A stretch of DNA of 64,000 nucleotides from Candidatus Marinacidobacterales bacterium. Lineage in GTDB: Bacteria; Acidobacteriota; Vicinamibacteria; Marinacidobacterales; SMYC01. Below the pieces are notes generated by a model that saw only the letters and a list, made by a program, of their open reading frames with translations, was not told the origin of the DNA and did no database searches. Of the stretch, positions 2,974-63,692 are shown in pieces; position 1 is the stretch's first letter, and each line of letters starts with the position of its first letter. A program made the position numbers and the translations under genes. The stretch lies in contig OZ250169.1 in the NCBI GenBank assembly GCA_965237955.1, positions 4,320,001 through 4,384,000 of the forward strand. Direction: 5' to 3'.

Positions 2974-3711
2974 CTAGCTCTCGCGTCGAGTCGCCTCGTA
3001 GAGTACGAGCGCTGCGGCGGTGGCGACGTTGAGAGACTCCACCTTGCCTTGCATGGGGATGCTCACGTTCGCATCGCAACGCGCCAACATCTCGTCGTCG
3101 ATCCCCGCGCTTTCACCGCCGAGAACGACGGCGCACGGTGAAGCCCAGTCCATCTCGCGATAATCGCTGCCGCCACGCGGCACGAGCGCGATGTTCCGAA
3201 ACGCGTCGAGCTCGCTCATGTCAGAGATCTCGCACACCGGTACACGGAGGACGCTCCCCATGGAGCCGCGCACGGCTTTCGGGCCAAAAGGATCCGTCGA
3301 GCCTTTCAGGACTACGAGCCCGGCGGCGCCGGTCGCCTCGACCACGCGCGCGAGAGCGCCGAGGTTGCCGGGATCCTGGATCCCGGCGGCAACGGCGATG
3401 AGCCCCGACCGCGGAGCCTCGGGTGACGGTCTACGGGCGATCGCTAGGATCCCATCGGGGGATTCGAGCGTCGACACGTTGCGAAACAACGCTTCGTTGA
3501 GCTCGACGAGCTCGAGCGTAGGAGCGTTTGGGGGTGGCGTGCCACGGTACGCGCTTGACACGACGATCGTTTCGACCTCGGTACCACTTGCGAGCGCGGC
3601 GTCGACGAGTTTTTTCCCCTCGAGCAGAAACTGCACCTCACGCTTGCGCGGGTGAGCGAGCCGGCGCAGAGTTTTGACGAGCGGGTTGGTCGGTGACTCG
3701 ATACGTCTCAT
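2974..3711 (-). CDS. TrmH/SpoU family RNA methyltransferase
   Basis: IQDPGNLGA, LGGESAG, IPMQGKVESLNVATAA; start placed at MRRIESPTN. Confidence 0.93.
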   Translation of the reverse strand: MRRIESPTNPLVKTLRRLAHPRKREVQFLLEGKKLVDAALASGTEVETIVVSSAYRGTPPPNAPTLELVELNEALFRNVSTLESPDGILAIARRPSPEAPRSGLIAVAAGIQDPGNLGALARVVEATGAAGLVVLKGSTDPFGPKAVRGSMGSVLRVPVCEISDMSELDAFRNIALVPRGGSDYREMDWASPCAVVLGGESAGIDDEMLARCDANVSIPMQGKVESLNVATAAALVLYEATRRES

Positions 3712-55875: not shown

Positions 55876-57594
55876 GGTTCTCCTGTCGTTTCGGGGGATC
55901 TGATTTGTGTTGGAGGGCATGGCCTATGGACGCTGCCGCGATTGTGGAAAACGCCGGAAACTCCGGGCGAGAGAGGCGTTTAGGGAAAGGTTGTGAGCAC
56001 GTACAAACGTGGAGCGGCGTTTTCCACAATCGCTTGGAAAACGCTTCGCGTTTCCCACGAGCGCCCACAGGCCCCTCCTGATATATATACAAGAAAGATT
56101 AATTCATATGGAATAAGGAAGGGGGGGCTCGATTAGTGGAGGCTATGGAAAACGCCCTTCCAGGCTTCGAAGAGAACTCAGTCGTGAGCAAGGTCTGAAC
56201 GACCAGAACCGTGGGGGCGTTTCCCACAGCCTTGTCTCCCGCTGAGGGGCAGTGGCATTTGGTGAGGCCCGTGGGTTGAGAGGGTAAGCCATGTGTAGAT
56301 GCGCATCGGCGAGAACGCTAGAATCTTTTTTCCCGAAAGAGAAAAGAGCGTTCCCGCGATGCGCGTTACTACGTTAGTCAACAAGCTCATCGGATTGCAA
56401 GGCCTGTGGGTCCGAGGTTTCCACTTCCAGGCGGACAAAGCCAGAGTGGTGGTGGATGTAGTACCACGGAGGAGGAAGCCTCTGTGCGGGATTTGCGGAC
56501 GAAAGGTCCGCAAGAACAAAGATCGCTACAATCGCTACTGGCGGCACTTGGACCTGTTCGGAGTCCGGACCTATCTTCGCTACTCGATCCGACGAGTGGT
56601 ATGTCGGCGGTGTGGAGTGGTCAGAGAAAAGGTGCCTTGGGCAGACAAGGGAAGCCGCTTTACCAAAAGCTTCGAACAAGAGGTAGCGTGGCTGGCACAG
56701 AGGACGGACGTCAGCGCCGTAGCGAACTATTTCCGAGTGACGTGGCGTTCGGTGCGACGGATCATCCAGCGAGTGGTTGCCGAGCAGCGGGATGAGCGGC
56801 GCGAGCTCGATGGATTGCGGGTGATTGGGATGGACGAGATCAGCTACCGCAAACGCCACAAGTACTTAACAGTGGTAATAGACCATCTCAGCGGCCGGGT
56901 CGTCTGGGCGGGAAAGGAGCGCAAGGCCAAGACGCTGCTGCGGTTTTTCCGCAAGCTCGGACCACAAAGAGCCGCGGAGCTCGAAGCGGTCAGCATGGAC
57001 ATGTGGGAGCCGTACATAACTGTCGTCGGCAAAAAGGCTCCTCAGGCACGGGTGATCTTTGACCGCTTCCACATCGTCAAGCATCTGAACGAGGCCGTGG
57101 ATAAGACCCGGCGCGAGCTGGTGCGCGAGCTCAAAGGGACTGCCCGGCGCAACCTCAAGAACACCAAGTTTCCCCTTCTCAAGGCCAAACACAACCGCAG
57201 CGCGAAAGACAAACGGGTGCTCCGCGAGCAGGTGCGAGCTAATCGTCGCCTCTACCGCGCCATGCTTCTGCGCGACGACTTCATGGACCTCTACACCTAC
57301 AAAACCGAGACATGGGCCAAGAAGTTTCTCCGAGGATGGCTGCGGCGCGCTATGAGCTCGAGGATAGAGCCCGTCAAACGCGCGGCGAAGATGATCCGCA
57401 GCCACTTCGATGGCGTCATCGCGTGGGTCACGTGGAGACTCAGCAACGGCCGACTCGAAGGAATGAACAACAAAATCCGGCTGCTGAGCCACCGCAGCTT
57501 TGGACTCCACTCTGCCGAAGCTCTCATCAGTCTCGTCTACCTAAACTGTGGCGGTCTCACCCTCGAGAGGATCCACTGAAATGGCAGGAGAGGC
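55876..57594 (+). mobile_element. ISL3 family element
   Basis: Imperfect IR GGTTCTCCTGTCGTTTC..GGATC vs reverse complement GCCTCTCCTGCCATTTC..GGATC; flanks AAAATTAA / AAAATTAG (7/8 TSD). Confidence 0.88.
56359..57579 (+). CDS. ISL3 family transposase
   Basis: Zinc finger CGICG..CRRCG, IGMDE, SMDMWEPY, FDRFH, SNGRLEGMNNKI. Confidence 0.96.
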   Translation: MRVTTLVNKLIGLQGLWVRGFHFQADKARVVVDVVPRRRKPLCGICGRKVRKNKDRYNRYWRHLDLFGVRTYLRYSIRRVVCRRCGVVREKVPWADKGSRFTKSFEQEVAWLAQRTDVSAVANYFRVTWRSVRRIIQRVVAEQRDERRELDGLRVIGMDEISYRKRHKYLTVVIDHLSGRVVWAGKERKAKTLLRFFRKLGPQRAAELEAVSMDMWEPYITVVGKKAPQARVIFDRFHIVKHLNEAVDKTRRELVRELKGTARRNLKNTKFPLLKAKHNRSAKDKRVLREQVRANRRLYRAMLLRDDFMDLYTYKTETWAKKFLRGWLRRAMSSRIEPVKRAAKMIRSHFDGVIAWVTWRLSNGRLEGMNNKIRLLSHRSFGLHSAEALISLVYLNCGGLTLERIH

Positions 57595-57638: not shown

Positions 57639-58827
57639 CTAGTCCCATGGAACAGAAAAAGATAGACAACACTGGCACTTCTGTGATCTGCTAAATGCAT
57701 GAAACACAAGGGCCGGCGAAAAGCCGAATTGAAGCTGTCGTCTCAAGAAAGCGAAGCGCTGACGCGACTGGCGCGACGCAGCCGTAGTTCGCCGCACCAA
57801 GCCTTCCGAGCGAAGATCGTGCTGGATTGCGCGGCGGGTCTGACGAATATGGAAGTTGCTAGGAAGATGCACACCATGAGGAGCACGGTGGGCAAGTGGC
57901 GAAGACGCTTTGTAGAACAACGAATGGAAGGGTTGTACGACGAACCTCGGCCGGGAGCGGCTCGCAAAATCGGCGATGACCAGATCGAGGAAGTCGTGAC
58001 CAAGACGCTGGAGACGACTCCAAAGGGGAGAACCCATTGGAGTACGCGCTCGATGGCCAAGCATCTTGGGCTGAGTCATTCGACGATTGGACGTATTTGG
58101 CGAACGTTCGGGCTTCAACCGCACCGCTCGGAATCGTTTCGTCTCTCGCAAGACCCACAACTGGTCGAAAAAGTACGCGCCGTTGTTGGCCTGTATATGA
58201 ACCCACCGGATAACGCGGTCGTCCTGTGCGTCGACGAGAAATCGCAGATTCAAGCGCTCGAGCGTGCTCAACCTGTCCTGCCCATGAGCTTGGGCCAGCC
58301 CGAGCGACAAACCCACGACTACATTCGGCATGGAACGACTGACCTGTTTGCCGCACTCGACGCCGCAACAGGTGAAGTCTTCGGAAAGTGCTACGCGCGA
58401 CATCGAGCGCTAGAGTTCAAGAAGTTCCTCGCTGAGATCGAAGCAGCCGTTCCCAGCGAGTTGGACATCCACGTCGTGCTCGACAATCTCGCCACGCACA
58501 AGACACCGGCGATCAAACGCTGGCTTTCCAAGCGACCTCGGTTCCACTTTCACTTCACACCGACACACGCCTCTTGGCTCAACTTCGCTGAGCGCTTCTT
58601 TGGCTTGCTCACCGAACACGCCTTGCGACGAGGCTCGCACACGAGCGTGCCTCAGCTCCGCGTTGCGATACAAGACTATCTCGATGCTCACAACGAGAAC
58701 CCAAAGCCGTTCAAGTGGACGAAATCCGCCGACCAAATCCTCGAAACCATCGCTCGGTTCGCCCAGCGAACGCTCGATACACATGGCAAATCGAATTTGG
58801 ACAGTAATTAAAGATCCAGGGGACTAG
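57639..58827 (+). mobile_element. IS630 family element, copy 2 (1189 bp)
   Basis: Same ends and length as copy 1; only 3 substitutions noticed by eye. Confidence 0.95.
57699..58811 (+). CDS. IS630 family transposase
   Basis: Matches the copy-1 protein except LAT>LET and RDV>RAV. Confidence 0.96.
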
Positions 58828-59312: not shown

Positions 59313-60142
59313 CGACCGAAAGCATATCGCATCGGCGGTGCCCTCTCGGTGCGGACTTTGCCGCTTTGCTGTGGTAAAACTCGCTCAGTCCGCCATGCGA
59401 CTCCAGTTGGATCGGATCCCCCGGGTGGACGACAGTGATGGATTGCGGGCTGCTCGAGCACAGAATCGACCACTTGGCGAGCGAGCTGGATGCGGCGACA
59501 CAATACCTGTCCGTGGATGGCGGCGGTGATTGAGCACGAGTCCAAGAGGTGATTGTGTGACGACTCCCCACAAGAGCATTCTGTGCCCGGTTGATTTCTC
59601 GGACATTTCTCGGATGGCCGTGAGCTGGTCTTGCCAGCTCGCCAAAGAGCTCGAGGGCGAGCTCACCGTGCTCCATGCGCTCGACACGGCGTTGTTGAAC
59701 GTCGGGAATCTCGTGGCGGCTCCGGATAGCGCGGCCGAGCTGCGGAGCCAGGCGGAGAACGAGATGGCGGCGTGGGCCGACGAGCTGGACCTTGCGGGCT
59801 CGCGCGTTGTGATCGAGGACGGCGTTCCCGCGGACGTGATCGTCAAAGCGACCGAGGAACAAGACGTCGACTTGCTCGTGATGGGAACCCACGGGCTCTC
59901 GGGGCTCCAGAAACTGCTCCTGGGCTCGGTCATGGAGAAAGTGCTTCACCGCGTCCAGGTGCCGCTCCTGTCGTTTTCTCCCAGATCACGTAATGCCCCG
60001 TACGCCCCGAAGAACATCTTGCTCGCCGTTGATTTTGGTCCGGAAACGAAAGGGAATTACATCCAATCGTAACCAAAAACCCTCGACATCCTAGCCTCGC
60101 CATGTTACGATTAGACATTAAAATTAGACGAGGAGGTTAAAG

Positions 60143-61108
60143 ATGGTGCGGCAAGCACCGGGCAAACATTTTAGGAAGGGGCTTTCGCTAGTTGAGATCA
60201 CGCAGATGTTTCCGAACGATAGTGCAGCGGAAACATGGATCGCAAAAGCCAGGTGGGGGAACGATCCGGCTTGCCCGCATTGCGGAAGCCTTAACGTCCA
60301 GGTCGGTGCGAAACACCCATCCCAGAACTACCGTTGCAGGGAACAGCAATGCCGGAAGTTCTTCGGAGTGAAAACTGGGACCGCGATGGCTGGAAGTAAT
60401 CTAGGATTGCAAGTCTGGGCCATCGCCACGTATCTTCTCGCCACTGGCCTCAAGGGTCGGGCGAGTATGCAACTCCACCGCGATCTAGGAATCGGGCAGA
60501 AAGCCGCTTGGTTCTTGGCGCACAGACTCCGAGAAGCTTGGGGAGATAACCAACCTACATTCTCAGGTCCGGTGGAAGTGGACGAGACTTACATCGGTGG
60601 CAAGGAGCGGAACAAGCACTCCCACAAGAAGCTGAATGCCGGGCGCGGGACCGTCGGCAAGACGGCCGTCGTAGGCGTGAAGGACCGCAAGACGAACCGA
60701 GTCTCTGCTGCCGTCGTGGAGAATACAGATGGCCCAACGCTTCAAGGTTTCGTCAAGTCTCGGGTTGCCGAGGAAGCCACGGTCTACACCGACGACCACG
60801 GAGGCTACCATGGACTACCGAATCACGAATCGGTCCGGCACAGCGTCCGCGAGTACGTCAACGGACAAGCCCATACCAACGGGATCGAGTCCTTTTGGGC
60901 ATTGCTCAAACGTGGCTATTATGGTACGTACCATCGCATGAGCCCAAACCACCTTGGGCGTTACGTCTGCGAGTTTGAGGGCAGACACAACCAGCGTGAG
61001 TCTGATACGATCGATCAGATGACCGCCATGATTCGCGGCATGGACGGGAAACGGCTACGGTATCGAGACCTCACGGCCATCAAGCCCGGCGGACAAGTCG
61101 CTGGCTAG
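60143..61108 (+). CDS. IS1595 family transposase (ISXO2-like DDE domain)
   Basis: Zinc ribbon CPHCG..YRC..CRK, VEVDETYIGG, VYTDD, HTNGIESFW.LLKRG. Confidence 0.96.
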   Translation: MVRQAPGKHFRKGLSLVEITQMFPNDSAAETWIAKARWGNDPACPHCGSLNVQVGAKHPSQNYRCREQQCRKFFGVKTGTAMAGSNLGLQVWAIATYLLATGLKGRASMQLHRDLGIGQKAAWFLAHRLREAWGDNQPTFSGPVEVDETYIGGKERNKHSHKKLNAGRGTVGKTAVVGVKDRKTNRVSAAVVENTDGPTLQGFVKSRVAEEATVYTDDHGGYHGLPNHESVRHSVREYVNGQAHTNGIESFWALLKRGYYGTYHRMSPNHLGRYVCEFEGRHNQRESDTIDQMTAMIRGMDGKRLRYRDLTAIKPGGQVAG

Positions 61109-61111
61109 GCC

Positions 61112-61924
61112 ATGCCAAAACCAGAAGTTCAGACGGAACTTGGTCGCCTCTATCACGCCGACTGTCTCACGGTTCTACCGGAGATACCAGCCGGTATCGT
61201 AGATACCGTTTTTGCCGATCCACCGTTCAACCTCGGCAAAGAGTACGGTCCAAGCGTCAATGATAATCGATCGAATTCAGAGTATGTGCAATGGTGCGAG
61301 ATGTGGATTCGAGAATGTGTGCGCGTGCTGAAATCGGGTGGGGCGTTCTTCCTCTACAACCTGCCGCGCTGGAACGTCACTCTCGGCACTATTCTCCAAA
61401 AGCATGGACTCTCGTTTCGCCACTGGATCGCTATTGAGCACACCGGGCGGTTACCGATTCAGGGGCGTCTGTATCCCTCACACTATTCTTTGATCTACTA
61501 CACGCTAGGCAAGCCTGCGACGTTTCGCCGAATTCGGACTCCTGTTGAAACTTGCCGTCACTGCGGTTTGGAGATCAAGGATTACGGAGGTCATCGTCCC
61601 GCGATGAATCGAAACGGAGTAACCCTCAAAGACGTGTGGACTGATATACCGCCAGTTCGTCATGCGAAGTATAAGCCAGAAGGGCGTTCAGCTAATGCGC
61701 TCAGCACAAAAATCGTCGAGCGCGTGATCGAAATGAGTACTGATCCAGGCGACCTTGTATTAGACCCATTCGGCGGAAGCGGAACGACGTATGCGGTTTG
61801 TGAGCAACGCGGTCGGCGCTGGATCGGTGTGGAGCTTGAAGATCTTGAACCGATCCGGCAGCGTCTCGATGGTCAAGTTCAAAATCACGCGAACAGCGAC
61901 TATGTTGAAACATGCCGATCCTGA
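61112..61924 (+). CDS. Beta-class amino DNA methyltransferase, M.BamHI-like (probably N4-C)
   Basis: FADPPFNLGKEY before LDPFGGSGTT (beta order); LPIQGRLYP, TCRHCG.EIKDYGG, DVWTDIPPVRH match my recollection of M.BamHI. Confidence 0.9.
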   Translation: MPKPEVQTELGRLYHADCLTVLPEIPAGIVDTVFADPPFNLGKEYGPSVNDNRSNSEYVQWCEMWIRECVRVLKSGGAFFLYNLPRWNVTLGTILQKHGLSFRHWIAIEHTGRLPIQGRLYPSHYSLIYYTLGKPATFRRIRTPVETCRHCGLEIKDYGGHRPAMNRNGVTLKDVWTDIPPVRHAKYKPEGRSANALSTKIVERVIEMSTDPGDLVLDPFGGSGTTYAVCEQRGRRWIGVELEDLEPIRQRLDGQVQNHANSDYVETCRS

Positions 61925-62400
61925 CGGACAGCCGCGACTATAACGGATTTCTAGCGAAGGTCCAGCGTCTCGGACTGGATCGCCTTGTTGACGATATAGA
62001 AGCTGCGGTGACCGGTTTCCGGCTTCGCGTATTGGAAGAACGCCACGCGAACGGAACACGACAGATCCGGCAACAAATCGACGACCAGATCGAGGCTTTA
62101 GACGGTTGGCGTAAGCTAACGGTCGGTGGGGTAGACTGGACAAAGGGGAATGAGCAAGGTAGCAAGATTGGCGCAGAGATTCAGGTTTCTGGACGTAGTG
62201 ACCTTCTGGCCGTTGACGTACTGCACCTTCGCGAGGAGCTTATAGCTGGGAACCTTGATGCCGGAATTATCATTGTTCCAGACGATAAGCTGTCAAGGTT
62301 TCTGACAGACCGCACGCCGAACTTTCGAACAGCACGGCGACACAGAGAACACCGGAGACACTTAAATCAGAAGCATGGTTTACACCCGACACCGCTCTAA
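61912..62400 (+). CDS. BamHI/BglII-fold type II restriction endonuclease, possibly C-terminally truncated
   Basis: VD..GAEIQVS catalytic region; LDAGIIIVP..LSRFLTDRTPNF resembles the BamHI YYLTDRVTNF segment as I recall it; overlaps the MTase end. Confidence 0.7.
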   Translation: MPILTDSRDYNGFLAKVQRLGLDRLVDDIEAAVTGFRLRVLEERHANGTRQIRQQIDDQIEALDGWRKLTVGGVDWTKGNEQGSKIGAEIQVSGRSDLLAVDVLHLREELIAGNLDAGIIIVPDDKLSRFLTDRTPNFRTARRHREHRRHLNQKHGLHPTPL

Positions 62401-62409
62401 GGAGGAAAC

Positions 62410-62586
62410 ATGAAGCGCACGAGGGAGAAGTCGAAGAAGCGCAGAGGCCGCCCGGTCACCTACCCCATACCAGAGCCAATTCCAGACACGCCCGAGAACA
62501 TCATGAAGGCGATTCTGGCTACCCCACCGAAGGGCCGTGACGAGTGGAAATTCATGCAGGAACGGAAGCGGAAACGAGCTCGCTAG
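62410..62586 (+). CDS. 58-aa basic protein with AT-hook-like RRGRP motif (absent from the ORF track)
   Basis: AAGGAGG RBS; MKRTREKSKKRRGRPVTYPIPEPIPDTPENIMKAILATPPKGRDEWKFMQERKRKRAR*; ends 6 nt before the right IR. Confidence 0.75.
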   Translation: MKRTREKSKKRRGRPVTYPIPEPIPDTPENIMKAILATPPKGRDEWKFMQERKRKRAR

Positions 62587-63167
62587 AAGACCTGGTTACG
62601 ATTGGATGTAATTCCCAAACGAAAAGCGTCGTCCGCCACGGACCACGGAGTGTGGCTCGCCGAGCACTTCGGAGCCAGGCTTTTCGGTGCGCACGCCGTG
62701 CCGGTGCCGTACGTCGTGCTCAACGATCGATCGATGGAACGGCTGACACCCGAGCAGCTCGAGCGATTGAAGGACACGCTCACTGCCGAGAGAAGGGAGG
62801 AGCTCTCCGAGCTTTTCCCCGATTCGTCGTTACCGGTCGAGGTCGTCTCCACCGTGGGCTCCGCCTATCGCGCGATGCTGGACGCCGTCGAACAGCACGA
62901 CATAGACCTCGTCGTCATGGGACGCGGCGGGCACGGCCGGCGCAATCTCGGCTGGGTTGGCTCGACCTGCCACAAGATGGTTCGCTCGTCGCCGTGCCCG
63001 ATTCTCATCGTGCCGGAATGATGGCGAGAGCGGCGGTGGTGGCGTTTCTTCATTCGTGCTACCCGCTGGTTCCCGCCGCTCCAGTGCGTTAGCTGGCGCT
63101 GCCTACCAGCTCCACGAATCAGCTGCTTGCCGCCCGGCCGCGACCTAGCTCTGGTGCGGGAGCAAAA

Positions 63168-63460
63168 TTACGAATTCGGTACCCCCTCGGCGGGCGAGAC
63201 CACGGAAAGCGACCCGCCGTGAGCGTGGACGAGGGTTCGGGTGATCGCGAGCCCGAGGCCGAGCCCGCATTTTGCCAAGAGGCGCACGTCATCACCGCGG
63301 TCGCGGAGTCGGGGAAGCGAGATGGTGATGACGTTTAGCCGGTAGAACAGATCGCGTCGGAACGTCTCTGCCTCGATCATTTTCTTCAAGTCGCGGTTGG
63401 ATGAGGCGATCACGCGGACATCTACTTTGACGTCTTGCACGCCGCCGACTCGTACCGCTT
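63168..63460 (-). pseudogene. Chimeric remnant of a sigma54 activator and a histidine kinase
   Basis: [28 protein letters not shown] joined in frame to [18 protein letters not shown]. Confidence 0.72.
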
Positions 63461-63494
63461 CTTGGATGGCATCGGACTCGCCGACGATGTTCTC

Positions 63495-63692
63495 GAAGGA
63501 CAACCCGTCACGAGCATCGTCGTCCGCGAAGGCGACGTGTACGCGGAGATCGAAGATATCCGCAAAAACGTCGATCCGCAGCTCGTGGTCATGGGCACGC
63601 GGGGGCTCACCGGGCTGGACCATCTCCTGGTCGGGAGCGTGGCAGAAAAAATGGTGCGCATATCCGAGATTCCGGTGCTGACGGTGCATTAG
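63495..63692 (+). pseudogene. C-terminal USP remnant
   Basis: [36 protein letters not shown]. Confidence 0.75.

What the first reader, a model, noticed from the sequence alone, without database searches (positions are those of the whole stretch)
60044..62624. Single IS1595 element carrying a BamHI-like restriction-modification pair
Seen: perfect 24-bp IRs and an 8-bp TSD enclose transposase, beta-class MTase (starting 3 nt after the transposase stop), overlapping endonuclease and a small basic ORF, all co-oriented. The insertion cleanly splits a USP gene and looks recent. Established: IS1595 members can carry passenger genes, and type II RM pairs act in phage defence and as addiction modules. 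Inference: a compact 2.6-kb self-mobile RM unit that could spread defence, stabilise itself or rewrite the host methylome. GGATCC sites occur in the host DNA here (e.g. near 3290, 3371, 4567), consistent with recent arrival if that is the target.
Basis: partly seen in the sequence, partly recalled or inferred. Interest (0 to 1): 0.82.

Follow-up and report, generated by a model that had tools for sequence, protein, structure and literature searches.

The report
IS1595 element carrying a clipped nuclease
This is a real 2.6-kb jumping gene of a known cargo-carrying kind that landed in a stress-protein gene; it carries an intact BamHI-type DNA methylase but a cut-short, likely dead restriction enzyme, whereas related elements in other bacteria carry the same pair complete.

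Summary
The element is real: perfect 24-bp inverted repeats, an 8-bp target duplication, and the empty, intact USP gene seen in two other sequencing studies. It holds an IS1595 transposase, an intact methylase 52-53% identical to those of BamHI-type operons, a BamHI-fold nuclease and a small basic ORF.

It is 162 aa against a median of 179; its last core strand and DNA-binding arm are replaced by unrelated sequence. The same short form appears in contigs from three studies. This copy is therefore most likely a mobile solitary methylase, not a working defence or addiction unit.

The nuclease is full length in four other complete IS1595 elements (three with this methylase, one with a different one). 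Their transposases do not form one clade (p-AU 1e-8), and the nearest transposases carry other cargo, so the cargo slot is exchangeable. GGATCC is the likely but unproven target.

IS1595 elements with passenger genes, and restriction genes between inverted repeats, are published. This scan has already noted IS1595 restriction cargo on other DNA five times. New member of a known kind.

The parts
59530..60051 (+). 5' part of the host tandem-USP gene (target of the insertion)
   Evidence: Pfam Usp E 1.3e-30; joined empty allele in runs X9, X10
60044..60051 (.). left copy of the 8-bp target duplication AAACGAAA
   Evidence: empty site has one copy (both = 8)
60052..60075 (+). left terminal inverted repeat, 24 bp
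   Evidence: 24/24
60083..60115 (+). sigma-70-like promoter candidate (60083-60111) overlapped by a 12-nt echo of the inverted repeat (60104-60115); possible transposase self-repression site (inferred)
   Evidence: consensus match only, 9 of 12; D12, I17
60143..61108 (+). IS1595-family transposase, 321 aa, zinc ribbon plus DDE domain, intact
   Evidence: PF12762 133 bits, PF12760 34 bits; NF033547 175 bits, cut-off 75; motifs VEVDET 144, YTDD 215, HTNGIE 244
61112..61924 (+). beta-class DNA methyltransferase, 270 aa, M.BamHI-type without the N-terminal extension; DPPF and DPFGGSGT motifs intact
   Evidence: PF01555; PADLOC PDLC03238 343 bits; 53% and 52% to methylases of two BamHI-type R-C-M operons
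61912..62343 (+). BamHI-fold endonuclease, homologous part (residues 1-144; D75, E89, Q91, D133, R134 kept)
62344..62400 (+). unrelated 18-codon tail that replaces the conserved last ~35 residues of the endonuclease; origin not found
   Evidence: (pLDDT under 50 for 147-162); same sequence in runs X1, X2, X4, X7
62410..62586 (+). small basic ORF, 58 aa (RGRP...PDTPEN), a conserved backbone gene of this IS clade, no known family
62593..62616 (-). right terminal inverted repeat, 24 bp
62617..62624 (.). right copy of the 8-bp target duplication
62625..63021 (+). 3' part of the host USP gene
   Evidence: Pfam Usp E 4.1e-18
62636..62649 (.). 7-bp tandem duplication CCACGGA, a second lesion that arose after the insertion

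Best explanation
This is an IS1595-family insertion sequence that carries passenger genes and inserted into a host USP gene with an 8-bp target duplication; its methylase is intact and its BamHI-fold nuclease is truncated, so it likely acts today as a mobile solitary methylase, predicted to mark GGATCC, rather than as a restriction or addiction system. Shown: ends, duplication, empty site, gene families, fold and truncation. Inferred: one transcript runs from the left end through transposase, methylase, nuclease and small ORF; the transposase acts on the 24-bp ends; the methylase modifies the host's ~2,300 GGATCC sites (N4-cytosine, by recalled analogy with M.BamHI); the clipped nuclease cannot complete its core sheet or bind the minor groove and does not cut. 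The element has a fixed backbone (transposase, slot, small basic ORF) and an exchangeable slot. The complete methylase-nuclease pair travels in that slot in other lineages, and loss of the nuclease tail would remove the danger of arriving in an unmethylated host that has no controller protein to delay cutting.
For: Ends and empty site. Truncation: 118 of 119 listed homologs keep the K-x-x-T-N-x-G tail and 1 of 119 is under 170 aa; the family profile matches the window only over positions 1-149 of 179; no homologous tail in any frame and no second copy in the genome. The short form is in contigs of three studies. Models: the full-length homolog P0008 has strands 3-9 and 154-160 and pLDDT 92.2; the window protein has neither and pLDDT 80.9. 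Best TM to BamHI falls from 0.86 to 0.75. In BamHI and OkrAI strand beta-7 belongs to the six-stranded core and the C-terminal arm makes base contacts linked to metal binding (PMC3025578). Methylase identity. Exchangeable slot: four complete elements elsewhere carry the full-length nuclease (L013, L094, L179 with this methylase; L028 with another); their transposases are 48-65% identical to this one and are rejected as one clade (p-AU 1e-8); the sister transposase (L180, 71%, support 99/97) carries unrelated cargo.
Against: Inactivity is inferred from sequence and models; the catalytic residues D75, E89, Q91 and the D133-R134 recognition pair remain, and OkrAI works with a shorter arm, although it keeps beta-7. 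The target is not shown: the family lacks BamHI's E77, N116, R122 and has Q for E113, and GGATCC depletion in these genes (0.54) is about that of flanking genes (0.61). No RNA or methylome data. One copy only, so present-day mobility is not shown. Most homologous pairs are not beside an IS1595 transposase (7 of 80 genome loci and 4 of 80 metagenome loci have one; many contigs are short). Read evidence is from assembled contigs at depth 2-20, and run X1 may be the source sample.
Confidence: 0.7

Rival explanations
1. One reading: the pair is functional in this copy. The 162-aa nuclease still folds, dimerises and cuts, so the element gives phage defence and post-segregational stabilisation.
For: Catalytic and part of the recognition residues are kept; the model still matches BamHI (E 3e-6, TM up to 0.75); the ORF stays open and unchanged across three studies.
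Against: Last core strand and arm absent; tail motif kept in 118 of 119 homologs; other substitutions at near-conserved sites (F60 to I, V88 to A).
Confidence: 0.12
2. The whole element is a silent, decaying relic: nothing is expressed enough to matter and the host methylome is unchanged.
For: Single copy; nuclease clipped; the USP remnant has since gained a 7-bp duplication; sibling elements in the genome are frameshifted or interrupted by other IS.
Against: Transposase and methylase frames and motifs are intact; repeats are perfect; a promoter-like site lies inside the left end (consensus only).
Confidence: 0.13
3. The pair is ancestral cargo of one IS lineage, inherited vertically and lost many times; there is no exchange between backbones.
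For: Methylase (65-75%), nuclease (54-73%) and transposase (48-67%) identities among carriers are of similar size; L094 and L179 transposases are sisters and both carry the pair. Repeated loss could also break monophyly.
Against: L013 has the most distant transposase (48%) but the closest nuclease (71%) to the window; the pair also sits in IS1-family and transposase-less repeat-bound units; L028 has swapped the methylase.
Confidence: 0.2

Closest known systems
IS1595-family insertion sequences with passenger genes (transporter IS, e.g. MTnSag1/tISSag10, tISCpe8; Siguier, Gagnevin and Chandler 2009, not held, known from citations and from recall)
   Same: One IS1595 transposase, ~25-bp terminal inverted repeats, 8-bp target duplication, passenger genes inside a single element (PMC5704250 passages); A+T-rich 8-bp targets as for ISApl4 (PMC12561309 passages).
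   Different: Cargo is a type II methylase-nuclease pair, not a resistance gene; a conserved small basic ORF closes the cargo slot; no test of mobilisation.
Transposon-like restriction-modification units of Furuta, Abe and Kobayashi 2010 (PMC2853133; abstract and passages read): Xanthomonas oryzae type IIP unit and Neisseria gonorrhoeae NCCP11945 type IIG unit
   Same: Restriction genes between terminal inverted repeats with an 8-bp target duplication and an empty site; the Neisseria unit has 26/26 repeats, a transposase-like gene (COG3677) and a truncated restriction gene.
   Different: There the transposase is absent or likely inactivated; here it is intact. The enzymes are of other families.
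BamHI / OkrAI restriction-modification systems (PDB 1BAM, 3ODH; PMC3025578, parts 1-3 of 4 read)
   Same: Fold (Z 23, rmsd 1.8-2.5 A over 168-177 residues for the full-length homolog); D94 and E111 equivalents; LTDR recognition loop; methylase 52-53% identical to those of BamHI-type operons.
   Different: 18% sequence identity; Q in place of E113 and no E77, N116 or R122 equivalent; about 179 aa; no controller gene; methylase lacks the N-terminal ~110 aa; the window's copy lacks the last strand and arm.
BglII / BstYI endonucleases (PDB 1D2I, 1SDO)
   Same: E-x-Q active-site motif (their Q is recalled, not from a call); same fold family (Z 15-19); weak PF09195 match.
   Different: Lower structural match than BamHI (TM 0.57-0.66 against 0.81-0.86); they lack the C-terminal arm region that the full-length family aligns to in BamHI (model range ends at 161 for BstYI).

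Membership tests
IS1595 family | DDE transposase of the IS1595 type with N-terminal zinc ribbon | tested here: met
   PF12762 133 bits (cut-off 27), PF12760 34 bits (25.4), NF033547 175 bits (75)
IS1595 family | Terminal inverted repeats of about 25 bp | tested here: met
   24/24
IS1595 family | 8-bp target duplication on insertion | tested here: met
   empty site with one copy in runs X9 and X10
IS1595 family | Present transposition activity | not testable with these tools
   one copy in the genome; presence/absence among close strains shows past movement only
Transporter IS (tIS) | Passenger genes inside one IS, between its own repeats | tested here: met
   sibling elements with other cargo
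ISNwi1 subgroup of IS1595 | End consensus of the type GGnnATTAT (recalled) and clustering with ISfinder members | tested here: inconclusive
   window end begins GGGAATTAC, relatives GGG(A/G)ATTATA; no ISfinder set available, source paper not held
BamHI-type restriction endonuclease | BamHI-like PD-(D/E)xK fold | tested here: met
   window model E 3e-6; full-length homolog E 1e-10, Z 23
BamHI-type restriction endonuclease | Catalytic E77, D94, E111, E113 | tested here: not met
   D75 and E89 align to D94 and E111; Q91 replaces E113; no E77 equivalent
BamHI-type restriction endonuclease | Recognition residues N116, R122, D154, R155 | tested here: not met
   D133 and R134 match D154 and R155; G94 and V101 align to N116 and R122; invariant R95 and D97 may substitute
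BamHI-type restriction endonuclease | Complete core sheet (beta-7) and C-terminal arm | tested here: not met
   absent in the window; present in 118 of 119 homologs
BamHI-type restriction-modification system | Cognate M.BamHI-type beta-class methylase | tested here: met
   53% and 52% to methylases beside a near-BamHI nuclease (332 bits to 1BAM) and a nuclease annotated BamHI
BamHI-type restriction-modification system | Recognition of GGATCC | tested here: inconclusive
   avoidance 40 observed / 75 expected in the genes, but 0.61 in flanking genes too; needs a methylome or digest
BamHI-type restriction-modification system | Controller (C) gene between R and M | tested here: not met
   present in the plasmid operons; none in the element

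The most novel reading that the evidence does not exclude
A widespread IS1595 clade is a cassette carrier: a fixed backbone (transposase, slot, small RGRP protein) into which restriction-modification genes are fitted with translational coupling at both ends and swapped between backbones. It ferries an undescribed compact BamHI-fold, E-x-Q nuclease family across at least four phyla, and sheds the nuclease to leave mobile solitary methylases. This locus catches that last step, with empty, filled and further-decayed alleles all present in public data.
Probability: 0.35. Interest if true: 0.62.

Novelty: new member of a known kind. Interest (0 to 1): 0.36.

Why it matters
It is a clean, dated example of how a 2.6-kb insertion sequence can deliver a DNA methylase to a new host, and of how a restriction pair decays into a solitary methylase while still on the mobile element. 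Carrier and empty-site strains about 99% alike exist, so a methylome comparison would test directly whether one jump rewrites about 2,300 sites. The intact relatives (L013, L179) are ready-made candidates for testing a self-transposing restriction system, and the 179-aa nuclease family, with a BamHI fold but a glutamine active site and altered recognition residues, is a small new comparison point for how these enzymes read DNA. The general idea is not new.

Tried and rejected
Frameshift or assembly error as the cause of the short nuclease: no homologous tail in any frame; same sequence in runs X1, X2, X4, X7 (X7 shows one extra T at 62397 in a depth-3 contig, which does not bring the tail back). 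Origin of the foreign tail: no informative DNA match in the genome or 177 loci; peptide search gave only Arg/His-rich chance hits in the genome, and the locus listing was filled by the window's own locus. A zinc-finger-like look of the tail was noticed and not supported. Target-site inference by avoidance: GGATCC ranked first of 64 by z in 125 non-redundant loci but failed the flank control, ratio 0.88, rank 28 of 48; rejected as evidence. Host-genome avoidance is unremarkable. AT-hook role of the small ORF in choosing A+T-rich targets: not needed, since the 712-bp ISApl4 also has A+T-rich 8-bp targets. ESM Atlas gave only unnamed clusters for the small ORF. No nuclease match in 72,556 plasmid records; 2 distant loci in viral contigs (not examined further). 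No RNA holder listed. Nuclease tree is poorly resolved and was not used for direction of transfer. No same-element copy in 40 relatives. Literature searches for this element or clade; none listed a description of it; ISfinder and REBASE could not be searched, and Siguier 2009 and 2014 are not held, so 'not catalogued' is unproven. The last row of alignment A3 had wrong coordinates and was dropped (redone as A5). G089 (unpublished) is not used for any claim. No complex prediction was run.
Full report
OBSERVATION. The element spans 60052-62616 (2,565 bp, 54.7% G+C against 60.2% for the genome). Its ends are 24/24 complementary and flanked by AAACGAAA on both sides. It occurs once in the 8.13-Mb single-contig genome, and no other site matches the repeat with up to 5 mismatches. 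The transposase passes the IS1595 models, and the methylase is an N6/N4 enzyme whose best PADLOC model scores 343 bits against 136 for the next.

EMPTY SITE AND ORDER OF EVENTS. Of 22 runs listed I laid 8. Runs X9 and X10, from two studies, each have one contig that joins 60043 to 62617 with 8 ambiguous bases. That is the intact USP gene, and it proves the target duplication. Those contigs differ from the window at 9 positions in about 720 and 650 flank bases, so they are close relatives, not the same strain. Runs X1, X2, X4 and X7 (three studies; X1 may be the source) hold the filled allele; X8 and X15 gave only fragments. Removing the element from the window leaves a frameshift, due to a 7-bp tandem duplication at 62636-62649. 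Both empty alleles lack it, and so does the filled allele in X7 (one contig, depth 2.6). The order is therefore: clean insertion, then decay of the dead USP gene. The genome has USP paralogs about 9 kb upstream, which would buffer the loss (inference).

THE NUCLEASE IS CLIPPED. The ORF has 319 homologs among 438 candidates. Among the 119 best listed, the median length is 179 aa and one is under 170; 118 keep a K-x-x-T-N-x-G tail. The window protein is 162 aa. It follows the family to invariant H144 and then has 18 unrelated residues. The missing part is in no frame and nowhere else in the genome. Contigs of X1, X2 and X4 match this stretch with no difference, and X7 differs by one inserted base at depth 3. 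AlphaFold gives the full-length homolog P0008 pLDDT 92.2 with strands at 3-9 and 154-160; the window protein has pLDDT 80.9, neither strand, and a disordered tail. Both models find BamHI first; the full-length one aligns at Z 23 over residues 2-180. By profile alignment the lost strand matches BamHI's last strand. PMC3025578 (parts 1-3 of 4 read) places beta-7 in the six-stranded core and shows the C-terminal arm making minor-groove contacts that correlate with metal binding. I infer that the window's nuclease is inactive. This is not measured.

WHAT THE PAIR RECOGNISES. The methylase is 53% and 52% identical to methylases in two plasmid R-C-M operons; the nuclease of the first matches BamHI at 332 bits over 209 residues and the second is annotated BamHI. 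GGATCC is thus the best guess; N4-cytosine marking is recalled from M.BamHI. Against certainty: the nuclease family keeps D94, E111, D154 and R155 but has Q for E113 and no E77, N116 or R122. GGATCC is depleted in the genes of 125 non-redundant loci (40 observed, 75 expected), but nearly as much in flanking genes (0.54 against 0.61), so that test says nothing. The host has 2,312 sites at observed/expected 0.90.

THE PAIR ELSEWHERE. Of 80 genome loci with the nuclease, 76 have a methylase hit and 8 a transposase hit; I drop L090, a 26% hit that interrupts the methylase, leaving 7 with a whole or partial IS1595 transposase directly upstream, in records titled Paracoccaceae, Alphaproteobacteria, Acidobacteriota, Gemmatimonadota and Actinomycetota. 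Of 80 metagenome loci 4 have one, being two distinct elements, one of them also seen as L037. A 400-genome phylum sample gave 3 strong matches, one of them (G079, L179) in such an element. Four elements are complete with repeats and a full-length nuclease: L013 (2,581 bp, 8-bp duplication), L179 (3,092 bp, 8-bp duplication), L094/L095 (3,410 bp, none) and L028 (2,906 bp, none). In all four the nuclease stop overlaps the start of a small ORF by 4 nt. L028 has an SPPY-type methylase only 30% identical. The pair also lies in two units with IS1-like transposases (L026, L036; below the model's cut-off) and in short repeat-bound units with no room for, or no detected, transposase (L045, L144, L163). 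Most homologous pairs show no IS1595 transposase in the DNA held, which is often short.

AN EXCHANGEABLE SLOT. Three sibling elements in the host genome have related ends, 8-bp duplications, the small ORF and different cargo. Of 9 regions fetched from relatives for transposase similarity, 6 gave a delimited element; none has this pair, and 3 have other methylase cargo. In a 15-row tree the five transposases that carry this nuclease are rejected as one clade (p-AU 1e-8); the window's sister is L180 (71%, 99/97), which has unrelated cargo. L013 has the most distant transposase (48%) and the closest nuclease (71%). Exchange between backbones is the simplest reading; repeated loss is not excluded. 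The small ORF belongs to the backbone: it matches in 10 of 41 genomes, all among the 16 with IS1595 domains, and by my hand count 14 of 24 matches lie downstream of and co-oriented with a transposase domain within 4 kb. Its function is unknown; a DNA-binding accessory role is my guess from its basic RGRP stretch.

MECHANISM. Shown: insertion with an 8-bp duplication; intact transposase and methylase frames; clipped nuclease; variable cargo. Inferred: a promoter inside the left end (consensus only) drives the operon; the methylase marks host GGATCC sites; the nuclease is dead, so there is neither restriction nor post-segregational killing. With no controller gene, an intact pair entering an unmethylated host would be dangerous, which would favour the truncation; whether it happened before or after this insertion is not known, only that it predates the 7-bp duplication.

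COMPARISON AND NOVELTY. IS1595 elements with passenger genes, 25-bp repeats and 8-bp duplications are described (PMC5704250, passages; PMC12561309, passages). Furuta et al. 2010 (PMC2853133, abstract and passages) report restriction genes between inverted repeats with 8-bp duplications, including a Neisseria unit with a transposase remnant and a truncated restriction gene; its supplements, not read, may list more. Eight searches (listings only) showed no description of this element, clade or nuclease family, but ISfinder, REBASE and Siguier 2009 were out of reach. Earlier notes of this scan record IS1595 elements with restriction cargo in five other genomes; they agree but are not evidence. 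Verdict: new member of a known kind, interest 0.36.

Noticed in passing
G000:C1:7073990-7074042: A 53-bp miniature of the same IS clade: two near-perfect ends back to back, flanked by an 8-bp duplication TATATAAA.
   Followed up: partly
G000:C1:1023418-1024840, 2525674-2528416, 5934808-5942024: Three sibling IS1595 elements with 8-bp duplications, the same small basic ORF and other cargo; the third is interrupted by two other insertion sequences.
   Followed up: partly
L028:3079-5984: The same nuclease clade paired with a different, SPPY-type methylase (best PADLOC model PDLC03230, 30% to the window's), suggesting replacement by an enzyme with an overlapping target.
   Followed up: partly
L026:218-4133, L036:1726-5598, L045:4049-5576, L144:193-1900, L163:3673-5571: The same methylase-nuclease pair inside IS1-like transposase units and inside short repeat-bound units without a detected transposase; L026 and L045 have 8-bp duplications.
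   Followed up: partly
L185:1250-5278 and L184:1197-4916: Related IS1595 elements in the host's family carry a 906-aa type IIG-like methylase and a 514-aa methylase-HNH fusion. The L185 target TAACGAAA differs by one base from the window's.
   Followed up: partly
window 62269-62296, minus strand: A sigma-70-like site (10 of 12) pointing antisense through the nuclease gene; consensus match only.
   Followed up: no
window 56299-57579 and 57699-58811: An ISL3 and an IS630-type transposase gene lie 1-4 kb upstream; copies of both recur elsewhere in the genome.
   Followed up: no
window 63168-63692: A short USP fragment abuts, on the other strand, a fragment resembling a sigma-54 activator and a kinase tail, suggesting a local rearrangement (by eye).
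   Followed up: no
L094:2724-3173: This element has an extra 149-aa ORF upstream of the transposase, inside the left repeat; no clear family.
   Followed up: partly
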